A stretch of 38,347 nt of DNA. It comes from a virus. Lineage: Duplodnaviria; Heunggongvirae; Uroviricota; Caudoviricetes. Below the pieces are notes generated by a model, which searched no databases, had not been told where the DNA came from, and worked only from the letters and a program-made list of their open reading frames with translations. Of the stretch, positions 175-7,725 are shown one piece after another; positions within the stretch are counted from its first letter, which is position 1; the number at the start of each line of letters is the position of its first letter. Position numbers and translations under genes: made by a program. The stretch is taken from IMG/VR virus record IMGVR_UViG_2718218452_000008, positions 1 through 38,347 of that record; one strand, given 5' to 3'.

Positions 175-227
175 GGGCGGCAGAGCAGTCACGGAGTAAA
201 ACTGATACCGCCAAACGTCACCAGAAA
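175..227 (-). ncRNA. dicF: DicF small regulatory RNA (53 nt)
   Basis: Reverse complement of 175-227 reads TTTCTGGTGACGTTTGGCGGTATCAGTTTTACTCCGTGACTGCTCTGCCGCCC, matching the DicF sequence as I recall it, followed by a T-run. It lies downstream of ydfC on the same strand, as in the Qin dicB operon. Confidence 0.8.
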
Positions 228-3481: not shown

Positions 3482-3904
3482 GTGGCAAAAGTTTTTACAC
3501 AAGAAGAGCGGGAAAAAATTAAAGGGCAGGTTGTTGAACTCGTACGCCGGAGTGGGCGTGAGACGTTACGGCAACTGGAAGTCAAGACAGGTGCGACAAG
3601 ATATCTGATGAGCGTTCTCGCAAGAGAGCTGGTTGCCAGCGGCGATGTATACAACTCTGGTTACGGGTTATTCCCGTCTGAACAGGCGCGTAAGGACTGG
3701 CAAAATGCCCGTAAAAAGCTCTCAAGGGCAAAGCTGAAGGAACCATCTGCGGTTGATCCGGACCTTATCTGGTCATTACCTGACGGAGAAATACGTCGCT
3801 ACGACAGGCGTCAGAACATAATCTGTCGCGAGTGCCGGAAGAGTGAAGTTATGCAGCGCATACTAGCATTCTATCAGGGAAATGCTCGATATTTATTGAA
3901 GTGA
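3482..3904 (+). CDS. Hypothetical protein (140 aa)
   Basis: GTG start 5 nt after a strong AGGAGGG Shine-Dalgarno; normal GC; no recognisable motif. Confidence 0.5.
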   Translation: MAKVFTQEEREKIKGQVVELVRRSGRETLRQLEVKTGATRYLMSVLARELVASGDVYNSGYGLFPSEQARKDWQNARKKLSRAKLKEPSAVDPDLIWSLPDGEIRRYDRRQNIICRECRKSEVMQRILAFYQGNARYLLK

Positions 3905-4156
3905 TGAGATTAAAGTTTATTAGTTCAGATATTGATTGGCTCTTTTGTGGAGTAGGGTAGAGTTAGTGTGTTTGTCTGCTTGGTGCCAGCAGCGGATATG
4001 TTTAACAACAGAAAGCATTCAGCATGGTTAGTGGATTTGCAAAGTGGATTAGGATTTGAGAAACTTTGATGAAGTTGTAAAGCTTGTTTCTATAAAAATA
4101 GAAATTTAACTAATAGTTAAACACACCTCCAGCTTCATTGAAAAGGATTATTAGCT

Positions 4157-5056
4157 ATGATTGATCCACTTATTAGAAACTTACAGAGTGATATTGCACT
4201 ACTCCAGCTTTATATCGCGCAACGCAAACAGGCAGGCTTTCATGACATGGAAAGAATAATTGAGTCATTGACCATCTTTATGTTTCGCGCGCTGAAAATG
4301 GGTGAACTGGTAAACATGAATCAGATTAAAGTTAATTTTCCCGCCATTGATTTAGCTGATAATAAAAACATGATAGCAGTTCAAGTTACTACGAATGCAA
4401 GTCCAGCAAAAATTAAAAAAACTATCGAATCTTTTGAGAAAATAAATGAAATAGGAGAGAGTCTGAAAGATAAATACTCTACTTTATATATTTTTGGTTT
4501 TTGTAAAGCCTCAAGATACCTAACTCCAAGTTATTGTAAAATAATCGACCCCAGCTATTTCGTGAATGAACTTTGCGATAAAGCAGATGAAGATATGGTC
4601 CAGGATATGATTGACGCCATTCGACGCCATCATGATTATACATCATTACATCCATGGAGTGATAAAGATTCACTCGAAATTATACTCAATATTATTAATC
4701 GCAATGCAATAAAACATCGGATGAGTTGCGAAGGCAGTCTGTCTGATATGCTCACTGGTTTAAAAGAAATTAATGAAGTAATTACAAAAGGAACAATTCA
4801 ACGTAAGCAACGTTCAAAATCGATATCTGACTTCAAAGATCAAAGCATGGTGAAATTTATGAGAGGTGTAATGGATGATTTGTCTGTTATTCAAGCCATA
4901 GTGAACAAATCTAAAGTTAACCAAGGTGATATGGTTTATATAAGCCATGAAGATATGATTAATATTGATAAATTAAAAGCTAAAATAGCAAGTGATTCAT
5001 CAGAGATTGCAAGGCTAAATAATATTGATATAACACTAAATGTTGTTGATTTATAA
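4157..5056 (+). CDS. Putative SMEK-domain protein (299 aa), low-GC accessory gene
   Basis: The N-terminal region (NFPAIDLADNKNMIAVQVTTNASPAKIKKTIESFEK...LYIFGFCKA) resembles the SMEK domain as I recall it. The gene is strongly AT-rich relative to flanking phage genes and has an AGGA Shine-Dalgarno. Confidence 0.6.
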   Translation: MIDPLIRNLQSDIALLQLYIAQRKQAGFHDMERIIESLTIFMFRALKMGELVNMNQIKVNFPAIDLADNKNMIAVQVTTNASPAKIKKTIESFEKINEIGESLKDKYSTLYIFGFCKASRYLTPSYCKIIDPSYFVNELCDKADEDMVQDMIDAIRRHHDYTSLHPWSDKDSLEIILNIINRNAIKHRMSCEGSLSDMLTGLKEINEVITKGTIQRKQRSKSISDFKDQSMVKFMRGVMDDLSVIQAIVNKSKVNQGDMVYISHEDMINIDKLKAKIASDSSEIARLNNIDITLNVVDL

Positions 5057-5370
5057 TTGTCGATTTAGCAAAACAGAGAATGCTTTGAAAGTTTCACCGA
5101 GAAATATTTATTGTGAACCTCCTTATTGTTTATCGACTTTTACTCTCCGCTCATTGCAGTACTGTCGGAGAAGGCTACTATGTACAAGAAGCAGCTAACA
5201 TAAGCGAGCATCACTATTGATATTAGGAAGAGTATATAAAAACTTCATGCTGAACCTTACAAAAGTAGGTAAACCGGCAATGGCCTAAGTGGCAGGGTCA
5301 TGTTGATCCGGCACTGCCGAGCTAATAATTAACAAGCAAATCACTCTTTCTAATAATTTGTTGAAATAAA

Positions 5371-6024
5371 CTAAATATGTATATGTTTACCAACAACCAC
5401 ATATGAACTACCTGCTTTGCTCCATGATTTTATTATTTCTAAATTATTATCTGAGCATATTTTACTTACAGTATCCACATCTAATAAACCATAGTAGAAA
5501 GCATTGCGAGAGTTTTGGTATATATACCCATGCAAATGTTTAATACCGCTCTCGTACCTCTTGAAATAAGAACTTTTGTATTGATTGACAATCAGTGCTT
5601 CACCATCACTCTTTAATAATTCTCTAATCGCACTGAGGACTTTGTGAATTGTGGATTCACATGGAATTGCGGAAAGCACGTTTGCGCAAAGTATGAAATC
5701 ATAATGATTTGTTATTTTATCTATATTTTCATAAGAAACAATATTAGCATTCTTATAGTTATTTATCACGTAATCTGGAATCGTGGTTTGTACACCTCTG
5801 ATAATTTGCACTCTTTCTAGTTGTCTTCTGGAATCTAAAAATGTCACAGTTTCAAATTTATTTACTAATTGTTCTGAATATCTAAGTTTTCCACATCCAA
5901 AATCAAGGGCATTGCCATTTTTATTAGTGCTTTCAATCTGTTTACAGAGATAGTTAGATGGCATAGTGTGCGGTTTCGCTGCATTTTCTGAACGTATGTT
6001 TATTCCATTTATTTTGTAATTCAA
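5371..6024 (-). CDS. Class I SAM-dependent methyltransferase (about 217 aa), not DNA-MTase-like
   Basis: Motif I ALDFGCGKLRYS, acidic end of beta-2 (VTFLDSRRQ), post-I ILCANVLSAIP, and LLKSDGEALIV. It lacks DPPY/NPPY and PCQ motifs. Probable TTG start at 6024 (GAGG 6 nt upstream) or 6030; starts 13 bp after the membrane-protein stop. Confidence 0.75.
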   Translation of the reverse strand: MNYKINGINIRSENAAKPHTMPSNYLCKQIESTNKNGNALDFGCGKLRYSEQLVNKFETVTFLDSRRQLERVQIIRGVQTTIPDYVINNYKNANIVSYENIDKITNHYDFILCANVLSAIPCESTIHKVLSAIRELLKSDGEALIVNQYKSSYFKRYESGIKHLHGYIYQNSRNAFYYGLLDVDTVSKICSDNNLEIIKSWSKAGSSYVVVGKHIHI

Positions 6025-6036
6025 AATCAACCTCGT

Positions 6037-6732
6037 TTAAAAAATATTGTTATTGTTAAAGAATTCTTTTATTTTGCTATCAGGTATTTGTCTTACTTGG
6101 CTTTCTGTTCTTGGTTTAACTGATGCTATGAAAATAAGGAAGTCAAATGCGACAAGAGAAATAATCCACAACCAAAGATTAATTAAAGAGCCAGTAACAG
6201 AGAATATATTTGTTAATTTGGCGATACTTATTATTAAAATAGTAACAAATGCGATTACTGTATGTTCAAAGAAAACCCAAAAGTAATAAACTTTGTTCCA
6301 GAAAAGTTCAACGTAATGTTTGTCTTTTAACTCTTTAACTTCTGGGTAATACAGTTTACTCATTACCTTGTGAGATTCATCAGTAGTTAATTTTCTCGTA
6401 ACGCCTGCAATTTTTGCTAATGGTTTAATAATTAAATGACTATCCCACATCTTCCTTATTCCAATAATTTTTGCTACATTATTATGTAGATCTAAAGCTC
6501 CACTAATTACTGACCAAAAAACTGAAGATGCAATTGGTAATATGCCAAAGGTTAATATCCATTTAATAAATTCCTCGTAGTCTTTAACGGGGGGGATATA
6601 CTTGGCATTAATGCCAACCAATGGCATGTAGCCATAAATGACTAATGATAGGTAAAATATAAATGTAGTAATAAAAGTCGCCTTATGGAGCATAGGCAAC
6701 ATTTCATTATAACTCTTTGGTGGTTCTAACAT
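6037..6732 (-). CDS. Predicted 4-TM integral membrane protein (231 aa), first gene of a two-gene operon with the methyltransferase
   Basis: Four long hydrophobic segments (ATFITTFIFYLSLVIYGYMPLVGI; FIKWILTFGILPIASSVFWSVISGAL; YYFWVFFEHTVIAFVTILIISIA; LINLWLWIISLVAFDFLIFIASV). ATG at 6732 has GGAG 7 nt upstream. Very AT-rich. Confidence 0.7.
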   Translation of the reverse strand: MLEPPKSYNEMLPMLHKATFITTFIFYLSLVIYGYMPLVGINAKYIPPVKDYEEFIKWILTFGILPIASSVFWSVISGALDLHNNVAKIIGIRKMWDSHLIIKPLAKIAGVTRKLTTDESHKVMSKLYYPEVKELKDKHYVELFWNKVYYFWVFFEHTVIAFVTILIISIAKLTNIFSVTGSLINLWLWIISLVAFDFLIFIASVKPRTESQVRQIPDSKIKEFFNNNNIF

Positions 6733-7173
6733 TTTACTCTCCAAACACTCAAAAAAAAGCTAATCTTCTATAATAACGAAATTCAGCTGGCACAATTAAA
6801 GATTAATTGCCACCAATTTCTTGATTTTATAATTTTATCTAAATGTTTTTGATTAATCTAGTCCTAAAAGAAACCTACTGCATAAATATTTATGCTGATG
6901 ACCCACTCCCTGTTCGTTAACACATAGCAACGTTAGTAATGCATCCTAAGTGATCAATATTTTTGCTAGCTTCATCTGCTCGCTCAAAGGGAACTATAAT
7001 GTTGGCTTGCGTGTGACTTGGCATGTTTAAAGAAGTGCTGGTGGTGACTGGTTGCTGTTTTCCATTTCCACAGAACAAAATCATAGAAACTATACCCAGT
7101 AGTTGTATTGAATCACTGACGAGACAGCCTCATATTTATCAGGACTGGTGTACGTCCAATACAGGAGGTTGTG

Positions 7174-7263
7174 GTGCTGGTTCTCAAATGTGCGCTGGCT
7201 ATTGCTGCTGTAATGGCAATTTATTGTCTTGCTGTTGTTCTTATGGATCACCTTTCTGATTGA
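7174..7263 (+). CDS. Candidate small hydrophobic peptide (29 aa)
   Basis: AGGAGG at 7163-7168 followed by a GTG start, encoding (M)VLVLKCALAIAAVMAIYCLAVVLMDHLSD, a single predicted TM helix. Not in the ORF track (under 60 aa). Confidence 0.3.
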   Translation: MLVLKCALAIAAVMAIYCLAVVLMDHLSD

Positions 7264-7474
7264 TTTCATATTGGCGAGGTAACGGTAGTTAAGTAGAATT
7301 GCTGCGGGTGCTTGAGGCTATCTGCCTCGGGCATCAACACCAAAGGCAGATAGAGAAAAGCCCCAGTTAACATTACGCGTCCGGCAAGACGCTTAACATT
7401 AATCTGAGGCCATATCTATGCTCTACACACGTAGGTTAGCCTCTTACGTGCCGAAAGGCAAGGAGAAGCAGGCT

Positions 7475-7630
7475 ATGAAGCAGCAAAAGGCGATGTTAAT
7501 CGCCCTGATCGTCATCTGTTTAACCGTCATAGTGACGGCACTGGTAACGAGGAAAGACCTCTGCGAGGTACGAATCCGAACCGGCCAGACGGAGGTCGCT
7601 GTCTTCACAGCTTACGAATCTGAGGAGTAA
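7475..7630 (+). CDS. hok: Hok/Gef-family type I toxin (51 aa)
   Basis: MKQQKAMLIALIVICLTVIVTALVTRKDLCEVRIRTGQTEVAVFTAYESEE is the Hok family signature and near-identical to K-12 HokD/RelF as recalled. The track ORF 7418-7630 extends in frame upstream. Confidence 0.85.
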   Translation: MKQQKAMLIALIVICLTVIVTALVTRKDLCEVRIRTGQTEVAVFTAYESEE

Positions 7631-7698
7631 GAGACCCGGCGGGGGAGAAATCCCTCGCCACCTCTGATGTGTCAGGCATTCTCAACGCACCCGCATTT

Positions 7699-7725
7699 AA
7701 CCCGCTTCGGCGGGTTTTTGTTTTT
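7699..7725 (+). terminator. Intrinsic terminator downstream of hok
   Basis: CCCGC-TTCG-GCGGG hairpin at 7701-7714 followed by TTTTTGTTTTT. Confidence 0.6.

What the first reader, a model, noticed from the sequence alone, without database searches (positions are those of the whole stretch)
7418..7725. Hok-family toxin without relBE upstream
The Hok protein is near-identical to HokD/RelF as recalled, but no RelB/RelE homologs precede it here. The ORF extends in frame 19 codons upstream (MLYTRRLASYVPKGKEKQA), and a terminator follows at 7699-7725. Whether a mok-like leader and sok antisense RNA are present cannot be decided by eye.
Basis: partly seen in the sequence, partly recalled or inferred. 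Interest (0 to 1): 0.5.

Follow-up and report, generated by a model that had tools for sequence, protein, structure and literature searches.

The report
Complete hok/sok toxin-antitoxin module in prophage
This is an ordinary, intact copy of the well-known hok/sok RNA-controlled toxin–antitoxin module carried by a lambda-like prophage of E. coli; the lack of relBE upstream is the usual state, and the K-12 relBE–hokD arrangement is the less common, truncated one.

Summary
ORF 7418-7630 (+) is a 70-codon mok/hok frame. Its last 51 codons (7475-7630) encode a Hok/Gef toxin that is 50/51 identical to K-12 HokD. No RelB or RelE homologue occurs anywhere in the window. A terminator follows at 7699-7716 plus a T-run.

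The leader 7306-7480 matches Rfam RF01794 at 114 bits. Also present are a promoter (7271-7299), tac (7306-7316), fbi (7681-7692), ucb, a mok Shine-Dalgarno and a 3' protective hairpin. An antisense Sok gene (7426→7356) has -35, spacer and -10 identical to the tested sokW of phage 933W.

Folding gives tac/fbi in the full-length RNA and tac/ucb in the 3'-shortened RNA. Covariation in 39 loci from several genera supports tac/fbi; tac/ucb is invariant.

K-12 hokD keeps only the part from the hok Shine-Dalgarno onward; relE replaces its leader. The intact leader occurs in 4214 of 5426 complete E. coli genomes, the relE-hokD junction in 1164.

This is already known (hokW/sokW; RefSeq labels it hokD) and of low interest. 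Sok transcription and toxicity of this copy are inferred, not measured.

The parts
7271..7299 (+). hok mRNA promoter: -35 TTGGCG (7271-7276), 17-nt spacer, -10 TAGAAT (7294-7299)
   Evidence: Promoter scan, 9/12 match. It sits 7 nt upstream of the conserved mRNA 5' end GGGUGCUU at 7306, where the Rfam model starts. The -10 region is conserved in 933W.
7306..7724 (+). Full-length hok mRNA (about 417 nt), from the inferred start site to the terminator
   Evidence: MFE -173.2 kcal/mol, z = -6.1 against shuffles. nhmmer homology in more than 40 loci from other genera runs from about 7290 to about 7694.
7306..7316 (+). tac (translational activator) element GGGUGCUUGAG
   Evidence: It pairs with fbi in the full-length fold, with ucb in the 3'-shortened fold, and with 7324-7335 in the nascent metastable hairpin. 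All three pairings are conserved in 39 loci.
7307..7335 (+). Metastable 5' hairpin of the nascent transcript (tac paired with the sequence just downstream)
   Evidence: The first 31-55 nt fold into this hairpin, -21.4 kcal/mol. 93.2% of cells are paired in 39 loci against 30-49% when slid; position 4 shows UA 28 / CG 9.
7358..7366 (+). ucb / anti-Shine-Dalgarno box. AAGCCCC (7358-7364) pairs with tac in the shortened RNA; GCCCCAG (7360-7366) pairs with the mok SD in the full-length RNA
   Evidence: Pair lists from the folds. tac/ucb is 99.3% paired across 39 loci but invariant, so there is no covariation.
7356..7426 (-). Predicted Sok antisense RNA, 71 nt: 15-nt single-stranded 5' tail, long hairpin, GGGGCUUUU 3' end
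   Evidence: Fold -28.6 kcal/mol; the 81-nt version has z = -4.6. Coordinates correspond to the sokW misc_RNA annotated in phage 933W. It differs from SokW at 6 positions, all within the first 17 nt, i.e. the 5' tail and the base of the stem. Transcription was not measured.
7433..7461 (-). Sok promoter on the minus strand: -35 TTGCCT (7461->7456), 17-nt spacer, -10 TAACCT (7438->7433)
   Evidence: Read from the sequence. It has the same geometry as TTGCGC-17-TATCCT in the R1-type plasmid locus. The -35, spacer and -10 are identical to 933W, where promoter mutations abolish antitoxin activity (PMC8621323). A7433 and T7437 (the T-7 and A-11 of the -10) and GGCAAG 7457-7462 are invariant in 39 loci. 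It falls below the threshold of the consensus scan.
7406..7409 (+). mok Shine-Dalgarno GAGG, 8 nt before ATG 7418; sequestered by ucb in the full-length fold
   Evidence: Pairs 7360-7410, 7361-7409, 7362-7408 and 7364-7406. GAGG is invariant in 39 loci. The helix carrying it shows compensatory changes: AU 28 / GC 11 and GC 24 / AU 13.
7418..7630 (+). mok reading frame (70 codons), in frame with hok and running through it
   Evidence: ORF list. 933W annotates the equivalent ORF as mokW. In 39 loci a GAGG plus ATG always (one exception) opens a frame that reaches or overlaps the hok start: in frame in 26, a long +1 overlap in 7, a 19-codon frame in 5.
7460..7465 (+). hok Shine-Dalgarno AAGGAG; the point where homology with K-12 hokD begins
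   Evidence: Alignment with K-12: identity starts at AGGAGAAGCAGGCTATG, and upstream of it lies the relE 3' end.
7475..7630 (+). hok CDS, 51 aa, HokD type
   Evidence: Pfam PF01848, E=2.9e-23. 50/51 identical to K-12 HokD. RefSeq annotates the identical DNA as hokD.
7613..7616 (+). UACG at Tyr47: the TadA A-to-I editing motif reported for hokC/D/E (Tyr to Cys recoding)
   Evidence: TTACGAA is invariant in all 39 loci. Editing of hokD mRNA is reported in PMC12214031. It was not tested here.
7638..7659 (+). 3' stem-loop GGCGGGGGA-GAAA-UCCCUCGCC: the likely 3' end of the processed, active mRNA, protecting it from exonucleases
   Evidence: Present in both folds. 97.8% paired, with 3 pairs changed on both sides, in 39 loci (helix 16). 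The role is inferred from R1 mutagenesis (PMC9841398).
7681..7692 (+). fbi (fold-back inhibition) element CUCAA-C-GCACCC, complementary to tac with one bulged C
   Evidence: MFE pairs 7306-7311 with 7687-7692 and 7312-7316 with 7681-7685. The duplex is -19.2 kcal/mol, reached by 6 of 2000 shuffles of the 3' UTR. Covariation UA 27 / CG 8. Homology with other loci ends just after it.
7699..7726 (+). Intrinsic terminator of hok mRNA
   Evidence: Terminator scan: 7-bp stem with 5 GC pairs, then TTTTGTTTTT. It is shared with K-12 hokD but not with 933W.

Best explanation
Window 7271-7726 is a complete hok/sok-type type I toxin-antitoxin module of the HokD/HokW subgroup. It lies in the early region of a Qin-like lambdoid prophage, between variable cargo and the rem-ydfU(DUF968)-rusA-Q genes.

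Proposed mechanism, following the plasmid R1 paradigm:
1. The hok mRNA starts at about 7306. While it is being made, tac is held in a metastable 5' hairpin.
2. In the finished 417-nt RNA, tac (7306-7316) pairs with fbi (7681-7692), and ucb hides the mok Shine-Dalgarno (7406-9). This RNA is stable, untranslated and closed to Sok.
3. Slow 3' trimming back to the 7638-7659 hairpin removes fbi. tac then pairs with ucb, and the mok SD and the Sok target open.
4. Ribosomes translating mok (7418 onward) deliver translation to hok (7475).
5. The unstable 71-nt Sok RNA (7426->7356, own promoter at 7461-7433 on the minus strand) pairs with the mok start region and triggers RNase III cleavage.
6. When Sok supply falls (prophage loss, or induction as shown for hokW/sokW), the 51-aa membrane toxin is made.

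Shown here: the sequence elements, the predicted alternative folds, conservation and covariation, and homology to tested loci. Inferred: the transcripts, processing, toxicity and biological role of this particular copy.
For: - Toxin: Pfam HOK_GEF E=2.9e-23; 98% identical to K-12 HokD.
- Leader: Rfam RF01794 at 114 bits (gathering score 59) over 7306-7480. The same model hits 933W hokW/sokW (113.5 bits) and an R1-type plasmid locus (87.2 bits), but not K-12 relBE-hokD.
- Promoter 7271-7299.
- Full-length MFE pairs tac with fbi and ucb with the mok SD. The 3'-shortened RNA forms tac/ucb. The nascent RNA forms the metastable hairpin.
- In 39 loci from Escherichia, Kluyvera, Photorhabdus, Erwinia, Pantoea and Citrobacter, 82.8% of cells are paired against 38-44% for slid controls, with covariation score 0.174 against 0.06-0.09.
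- tac position 4 covaries with both its fbi partner and its metastable partner.
- The tac-fbi duplex is reached by 6 of 2000 shuffles.
- Sok has a hairpin plus U-tail, and its -35, spacer and -10 are identical to sokW.
- About 95% nt identity to 933W mokW/hokW/sokW over 7287-7694.
- hokW/sokW was shown experimentally to be a type I TA dependent on RNase III and Hfq (PMC8621323).
- The R1 mechanism is summarised in PMC9841398.
Against: - There are no expression data for this copy.
- The Sok promoter matches the sigma-70 consensus at only 7/12 and was not picked up by the scan. The R1-type promoter is no better.
- tac/ucb is invariant, so that pairing has no covariation support.
- The shortened RNA was cut at an arbitrary 3' end (7672).
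- Part of the structure was derived from the window sequence itself, which inflates the percentage paired.
- Chromosomal hok loci tested in the past did not mediate post-segregational killing (preprint 10.1101/2025.08.07.668861).
Confidence: 0.75

Rival explanations
1. The locus is architecturally complete but functionally silent: a decaying chromosomal hok copy, like those described for E. coli K-12, that never produces toxin under natural conditions.
For: [quoted passage not shown] The K-12 hok loci other than hokB are regarded as inactivated (PMC12214031). The neighbouring prophage in the closely matching strain C7 carries several pseudogenes.
Against: No IS element, frameshift or stop interrupts any element. 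Every pairing element and both promoters match the functional 933W locus. K-12 HokD, which differs from this Hok by one residue, served as a known-toxic positive control in the preprint's assay. The module is kept in 78% of complete E. coli genomes, often in several copies.
Confidence: 0.15
2. hok is expressed here as the tail of a longer phage or host transcript, as in the K-12 relBEF operon. The leader is only a relic and no Sok control operates.
For: In K-12, hokD lies directly downstream of relE without a hok leader of its own, and hokD was first described as relF, a gene of the relB operon (title of reference 7 in PMC9841398).
Against: The two nearest upstream genes (5371-6030 and 6037-6744) are on the opposite strand, and about 560 nt of non-coding DNA precede the hok promoter. 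The module has its own promoter-like site and terminator. The leader scores as high on RF01794 as the tested hokW/sokW.
Confidence: 0.04
3. The 70-aa ORF 7418-7630 is itself the functional product, an N-terminally extended Hok, rather than a mok frame that only serves translational coupling.
For: The frame is continuous with hok here and in 26 of 39 related loci. Some phage records annotate only the long ORF, as a 'MokW-like host killing protein'.
Against: In 12 of the 39 loci the upstream frame is out of phase with hok or ends after 19 codons, and the residues at mok positions 2-5 vary freely. So the extension is not conserved as protein; what is conserved is that translation enters the hok start region. 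hok has its own strong SD, AAGGAG, 9 nt before ATG 7475. HokW at 51 aa is toxic on its own (PMC8621323).
Confidence: 0.06

Closest known systems
hokW/sokW (mokW) of Stx2 phage 933W / Sakai prophage Sp5
   Same: About 95% nucleotide identity over 7287-7694, that is, from the promoter -10 to just past fbi. Same mok frame, same Sok -35, spacer and -10, identical Sok hairpin. Same RF01794 score. Prophage-borne.
   Different: Hok differs at 3 residues (T45V, A46D, E51K). The Sok 5' region differs at 6 positions within the first 17 nt. The terminator is unrelated. In 933W the module sits in the late/accessory region next to L0136, not upstream of rem-DUF968-Q.
hokD (relF) of the relBEF operon, E. 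coli K-12 cryptic prophage Qin
   Same: 50/51 identical Hok. Identical 3' UTR including fbi and terminator. Same downstream neighbours rem, ydfU and Q, and the same dicA/dicC/dicB/DicF immunity region.
   Different: K-12 keeps only the part from the hok SD onward. Promoter, tac, ucb, mok start and sok are replaced by relE-relB, and there is no RF01794 hit. The K-12 junction is found in 1164 of 5426 genomes, the intact leader in 4214 of 5426.
hok/sok (parB) of plasmid R1 and IncF relatives
   Same: Same order of elements and the same geometry of the Sok promoter (TTGCGC-17-TATCCT against TTGCCT-17-TAACCT). tac GGCGCUUGAGG against GGGUGCUUGAGG. fbi lies at the 3' end. mok is in frame in the R1-type locus examined. 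RF01794 hit of 87 bits.
   Different: The toxin is much less similar (HokW and R1 Hok share 44% identity; PMC8621323). The Sok hairpin here carries a 16-18 nt apical extension. The carrier is a plasmid, and its role is post-segregational killing.
hokC (gef)/mokC/sokC chromosomal loci
   Same: Same architecture with an in-frame 69-codon mok (loci L019-L022). Hok 82-84% identical.
   Different: They lack the apical extension of the Sok hairpin and have a different 3' terminator. They are core-chromosomal rather than prophage-borne.

Membership tests
[quoted passage not shown] | Small Hok/Gef-family membrane toxin ORF (about 50 aa) | tested here: met
   PF01848 E=2.9e-23; 98% identical to HokD.
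[quoted passage not shown] | Conserved hok mRNA leader (Rfam RF01794) | tested here: met
   114 bits against a gathering score of 59, full model 1-157, at 7306-7480. Positive controls 933W and the R1-type locus hit; the K-12 relBE-hokD region does not. The model matches the hok-sense strand.
[quoted passage not shown] | Long-range 5'-3' tac/fbi pairing that closes the full-length mRNA | tested here: met
   Present in the MFE. Duplex -19.2 kcal/mol, reached by 6 of 2000 shuffles. 91.6% paired with a U-A to C-G compensatory change in 39 loci.
[quoted passage not shown] | Alternative tac/ucb pairing after 3' trimming that frees the mok SD, plus a metastable 5' hairpin | tested here: met
   Predicted folds. 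Conservation is 99.3% for tac/ucb (invariant, so no covariation) and 93.2% for the metastable hairpin (with covariation). This is prediction only; processing was not observed.
[quoted passage not shown] | Overlapping mok reading frame with its own SD upstream of hok | tested here: met
   GAGG 7406-7409 and ATG 7418, 70 codons.
[quoted passage not shown] | Cis-encoded antisense Sok RNA with its own promoter, covering the mok start region | tested here: inconclusive
   Promoter geometry and key bases are conserved, and the -35, spacer and -10 are identical to the experimentally validated sokW. A hairpin with a U-tail is predicted (PMC8621323). The consensus scan does not call the promoter, and there are no transcript data.
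[quoted passage not shown] | Toxin kills or arrests cells, and Sok neutralises it | not testable with these tools
   Shown only for relatives: HokW/SokW, and K-12 HokD, used as a known-toxic control in the preprint's assay.
relBEF operon (relB-relE-hokD) | RelB antitoxin and RelE toxin genes directly upstream of hokD, co-transcribed with it | tested here: not met
   tblastn with RelB and RelE gives no hit in the window (best E >= 1). The nearest upstream genes are a methyltransferase and a membrane protein on the opposite strand.

The most novel reading that the evidence does not exclude
Among close HokD/HokW-type copies, sequence differences in the leader cluster in two places: the apical loop of the 5' hairpin and 7411-7430, the region of the Sok 5' recognition tail and mok start. 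This Sok differs from SokW at 6 positions, all within its first 17 nt. Since E. coli genomes carry a median of 2 and up to 10 such leaders, the tail may be diversifying so that co-resident prophage hok/sok modules stay insulated from each other's antitoxin. Each prophage would then remain individually 'addictive' or individually triggered on induction.
Probability: 0.3. Interest if true: 0.35.

Novelty: already known. Interest (0 to 1): 0.1.

Why it matters
It matters little beyond correct annotation. RefSeq labels only the 51-aa hokD here and omits mok, Sok and the regulatory RNA elements. Someone working from K-12 might therefore wrongly expect relBE, or wrongly assume an orphan toxin. The comparison also shows concretely that K-12's relF/hokD is a 5'-truncated remnant of this prophage module, while most E. 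coli genomes carry the intact form.

Tried and rejected
- The sigma-70 consensus scan on 7150-7850 found the hok promoter and terminator but not the Sok promoter (7/12 match, below threshold). The Sok promoter therefore rests on comparison with 933W and R1-type loci.
- The terminator scan also missed the Sok terminator, whose stem has bulges.
- From memory I expected R1 mok to be out of frame with hok. The R1-type plasmid locus fetched here has it in frame, so the in-frame extension is not unusual.
- The review PMC2593563 was not available. No open text of the original description of the chromosomal hok loci was found. The statement that K-12 hokD was inactivated by rearrangement comes second-hand from PMC12214031 and from my own alignment.
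- PADLOC has no model that hits Hok, Rem-like or the downstream small ORFs.
- An ungapped whole-window comparison with E. coli C7 gave 7716 mismatches. The window is therefore not simply collinear with that genome over its whole length, although 7260-7760 is 100% identical to it.
- MAFFT puts the Photorhabdus fbi one column out of register, because that fbi has no bulge. The inner tac-fbi pairs are therefore under-counted.

Full report
**1. Observation**

ORF 7418-7630 (+) has 70 codons. It begins MLYTRRLASYVPKGKEKQA and continues in frame into MKQQKAMLIALIV....
- Pfam places residues 25-66 in HOK_GEF (PF01848, E=2.9e-23).
- The 51-codon hok proper (ATG 7475, stop 7628-7630) is 50/51 identical to K-12 HokD. 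The single change is Pro49 to Ser.
- tblastn with K-12 RelE and RelB finds nothing anywhere in the 38-kb window (best E >= 1). Rem (72%) and YdfU (85%) follow hok exactly as in K-12 Qin.
- The hairpin 7699-7716 followed by a T-run is called as a terminator.

**2. Surroundings**

The window is a lambdoid prophage with a Qin-type early region.
- DicF RNA lies at 175-226.
- For the rest I used the RefSeq annotation of E. coli C7, which is 100% identical over 7260-7760. It lists dicB, dicA, dicC, YdaT-like, DUF977, then hokD, a Rem-like gene, DUF968, rusA and Q. These are followed by three tRNAs, the lysis genes and lambda-like head and tail genes.
- Directly upstream of hok is a 3-kb island of 28-35% G+C. 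It carries a SMEK-domain protein on the plus strand, and a SAM methyltransferase and a 235-aa membrane protein on the minus strand.
- K-12 has flxA-ydfV-relB-relE at the equivalent place. Phage HannyBb has a different small cargo there.
- So hok sits at the edge of a variable cargo slot.

**3. What the leader is**

Rfam RF01794 ('sok') matches 7306-7480 over its whole length at 114 bits, against a gathering score of 59. The match is on the hok-sense strand and ends at the hok start codon. The model therefore describes the hok mRNA leader, within which Sok is encoded on the other strand.

Controls behave as expected:
- 933W hokW/sokW scores 113.5 bits.
- An IncFII plasmid locus encoding a Hok identical to the 52-aa sequence I recalled for R1 Hok scores 87.2 bits.
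- The K-12 relBE-hokD region gives no hit.

Alignment shows that K-12 hokD is identical to the window only from the hok Shine-Dalgarno (AGGAGAAGCAGGCTATG, about 7461) through the terminator. Upstream of that point K-12 has the 3' end of relE. K-12 has thus lost the promoter, tac, ucb, the mok start and sok, but it keeps fbi and the terminator.

**4. Elements of the module**

- A promoter-like site, TTGGCG-17-TAGAAT (7271-7299), lies 7 nt before the conserved 5' end GGGUGCUUGAGG at 7306.
- Folding 7306-7722 gives an MFE of -173.2 kcal/mol (z = -6.1). In it, 7306-7311 pair with 7687-7692 and 7312-7316 with 7681-7685, with one bulged C. This is the tac/fbi fold-back. GCCCCAG (7360-7366) pairs with CUGAGGC and so covers the mok SD GAGG at 7406-7409.
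- The tac-fbi duplex (-19.2 kcal/mol) is reached by only 6 of 2000 shuffles of the 3' UTR.
- Removing the last 50 nt switches the MFE to GGG.GCUU (7306-7313) paired with AAGCCCC (7358-7364), the tac/ucb stem, and the ucb-SD pairing is lost.
- The first 31-55 nt fold into a -21.4 kcal/mol hairpin that sequesters tac. This is the metastable structure described for nascent R1 hok mRNA (PMC9841398).
- A GC-rich stem-loop at 7638-7659 lies just upstream of the part that must be removed. It corresponds to the 3' hairpin that protects processed R1 hok mRNA.

**5. Comparative support**

A back-translated search of one genome per species returned 53 loci. nhmmer with 7270-7730 aligned almost all of them from about 7290 to about 7694, that is, promoter to fbi. 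I aligned 39 distinct full-length units from Escherichia, Kluyvera, Photorhabdus, Erwinia, Pantoea, Citrobacter and others.
- On the full-length structure, 82.8% of cells are paired against 38-44% when partners are slid. The covariation score is 0.174 against 0.06-0.09. 50 pairs change on both sides.
- tac position 4 is U in Escherichia and C in Photorhabdus. Its fbi partner changes A to G (UA 27, CG 8, UG 2). Its metastable partner does the same (UA 28, CG 9, UG 2). The same base is bulged in tac/ucb, which is otherwise invariant (99.3% paired).
- Caveats: the structure was taken from the window sequence, which favours it in the percentage-paired measure. The invariant pairs say nothing either way.

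**6. mok**

GAGG followed 8-10 nt later by ATG is present in 38 of 39 loci. The frame it opens differs between loci:
- continuous with hok in 26 loci, including this one, 933W and the hokC-type loci;
- a long +1 overlap in 7 loci;
- a 19-codon frame ending at the hok start in 5 loci.

The second to fifth codons vary freely. What is conserved is translation into the hok initiation region, not a Mok protein. This fits translational coupling.

**7. Sok**

- On the minus strand, TTGCCT (7461->7456), 17 nt, then TAACCT (7438->7433) has the same geometry as TTGCGC-17-TATCCT in the R1-type locus.
- It matches the consensus at only 7/12 and was not called by the scan. However, its -35, spacer and -10 are identical to 933W.
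- The bases that give the -10 A(-11) and T(-7), and TTGCC of the -35, are invariant in 39 loci.
- A start at about 7426 and an end at about 7356 correspond to the sokW feature annotated in 933W.
- The resulting 71-nt RNA has a 15-nt free 5' tail, a long hairpin and a GGGGCUUUU end (-28.6 kcal/mol).
- For sokW, Takada et al. showed that promoter mutations unleash HokW toxicity, that Sok supplied in trans rescues, and that RNase III and Hfq contribute. They also showed that Sok disappears and HokW appears after mitomycin C, advancing lysis and doubling phage release (PMC8621323).

**8. How common it is**

- The 501-nt region is 100% identical in 11 complete E. coli genomes. It is covered at >=80% in 3826 of 5426 genomes, and all 30 listed hits are annotated as hokD.
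- The leader alone (7290-7480) is present in 4214 of 5426 genomes, with a median of 2 and up to 10 copies.
- The K-12 relE-hokD junction is present in 1164 genomes.
- The module also occurs in 102 phage records, annotated MokW, HokW/SokW, HokD or gef, and in P1-like and other plasmids.
- A recent survey reports that hok is enriched in prophages (10.1101/2025.08.07.668861).

**9. Verdict**

This is a textbook, intact hok/sok module of the HokD/HokW subgroup in a prophage. Every defining sequence feature of the family that can be tested in silico is met. Sok transcription, 3' processing and toxicity are inferred from near-identical tested relatives. The absence of relBE is not an anomaly; K-12's relBEF is the rearranged form.

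Novelty: already known. Interest is low.

The only mildly open point is that differences among close copies cluster in the Sok 5' tail and mok start region. That could insulate co-resident copies from each other's antitoxin.

Noticed in passing
window 3900-7000: A 3-kb low-G+C island (28-35% against about 50% in the flanks) lies directly upstream of hok. It encodes a 299-aa SMEK-domain protein (4157-5056, +) whose N-terminus matches the PADLOC model 'Aga_REase-PNTD1-PNTD2' (E=1.4e-20), a class I SAM methyltransferase (5371-6030, -; weak PADLOC mad2 hit), and a 235-aa membrane protein with no family hit (6037-6744, -). It occupies the slot where K-12 Qin has flxA-ydfV-relBE. It may be defence or moron cargo.
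   Followed up: partly
window 7613-7616: UACG at Tyr47 of Hok is the TadA A-to-I editing motif reported to recode Tyr to Cys in hokC/D/E mRNAs (PMC12214031). TTACGAA is invariant in all 39 aligned loci.
   Followed up: partly
window 7411-7430 and 7335-7344: Among five close HokD/HokW-type copies, the variable sites of the leader cluster in the Sok 5' tail / mok start region and in the apical loop of the 5' hairpin. Predicted Sok differs from 933W SokW at 6 positions, all within its first 17 nt.
   Followed up: partly
window 7287-7694 compared with L001 (933W) 1501-1908: Homology with the 933W module starts in the hok promoter and stops 2 nt after fbi; the terminators are unrelated. In many other genera homology also ends right after GCACCC. 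The mobile unit is therefore promoter-to-fbi, and it sits at a different place in the 933W genome.
   Followed up: partly
window 7306-7480: Rfam RF01794, named 'sok antitoxin', matches the hok-sense strand and ends at the hok start codon, here and in the 933W and R1-type controls. A hit therefore marks the hok leader, not the strand of the antisense RNA.
   Followed up: yes
window 175-226 (-): DicF antisense sRNA, full-length Rfam match of 76.7 bits, next to dicB as in K-12 Qin.
   Followed up: no
window 11796-11968 (+): Match to the sRNA family STnc100 (RF02076, 100.8 bits), downstream of the tRNA cluster and the Q gene. The 3' third of the model aligns poorly.
   Followed up: no
window 10776-11022 (+): Three tRNA genes in a row downstream of the antiterminator Q gene. 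They are annotated Ile, Arg, Arg in the near-identical E. coli C7 prophage, as is typical of Stx-type lambdoid phages.
   Followed up: no
window 7023-7259 (+): A 78-codon ORF unusually rich in Cys and Gly (…GGCGAGSQMCAGYCCCNGNLLSCCCSYGSPF) lies in the non-coding gap between the low-GC island and the hok promoter. It has no Pfam hit and is not annotated in RefSeq. It is probably not a gene.
   Followed up: no
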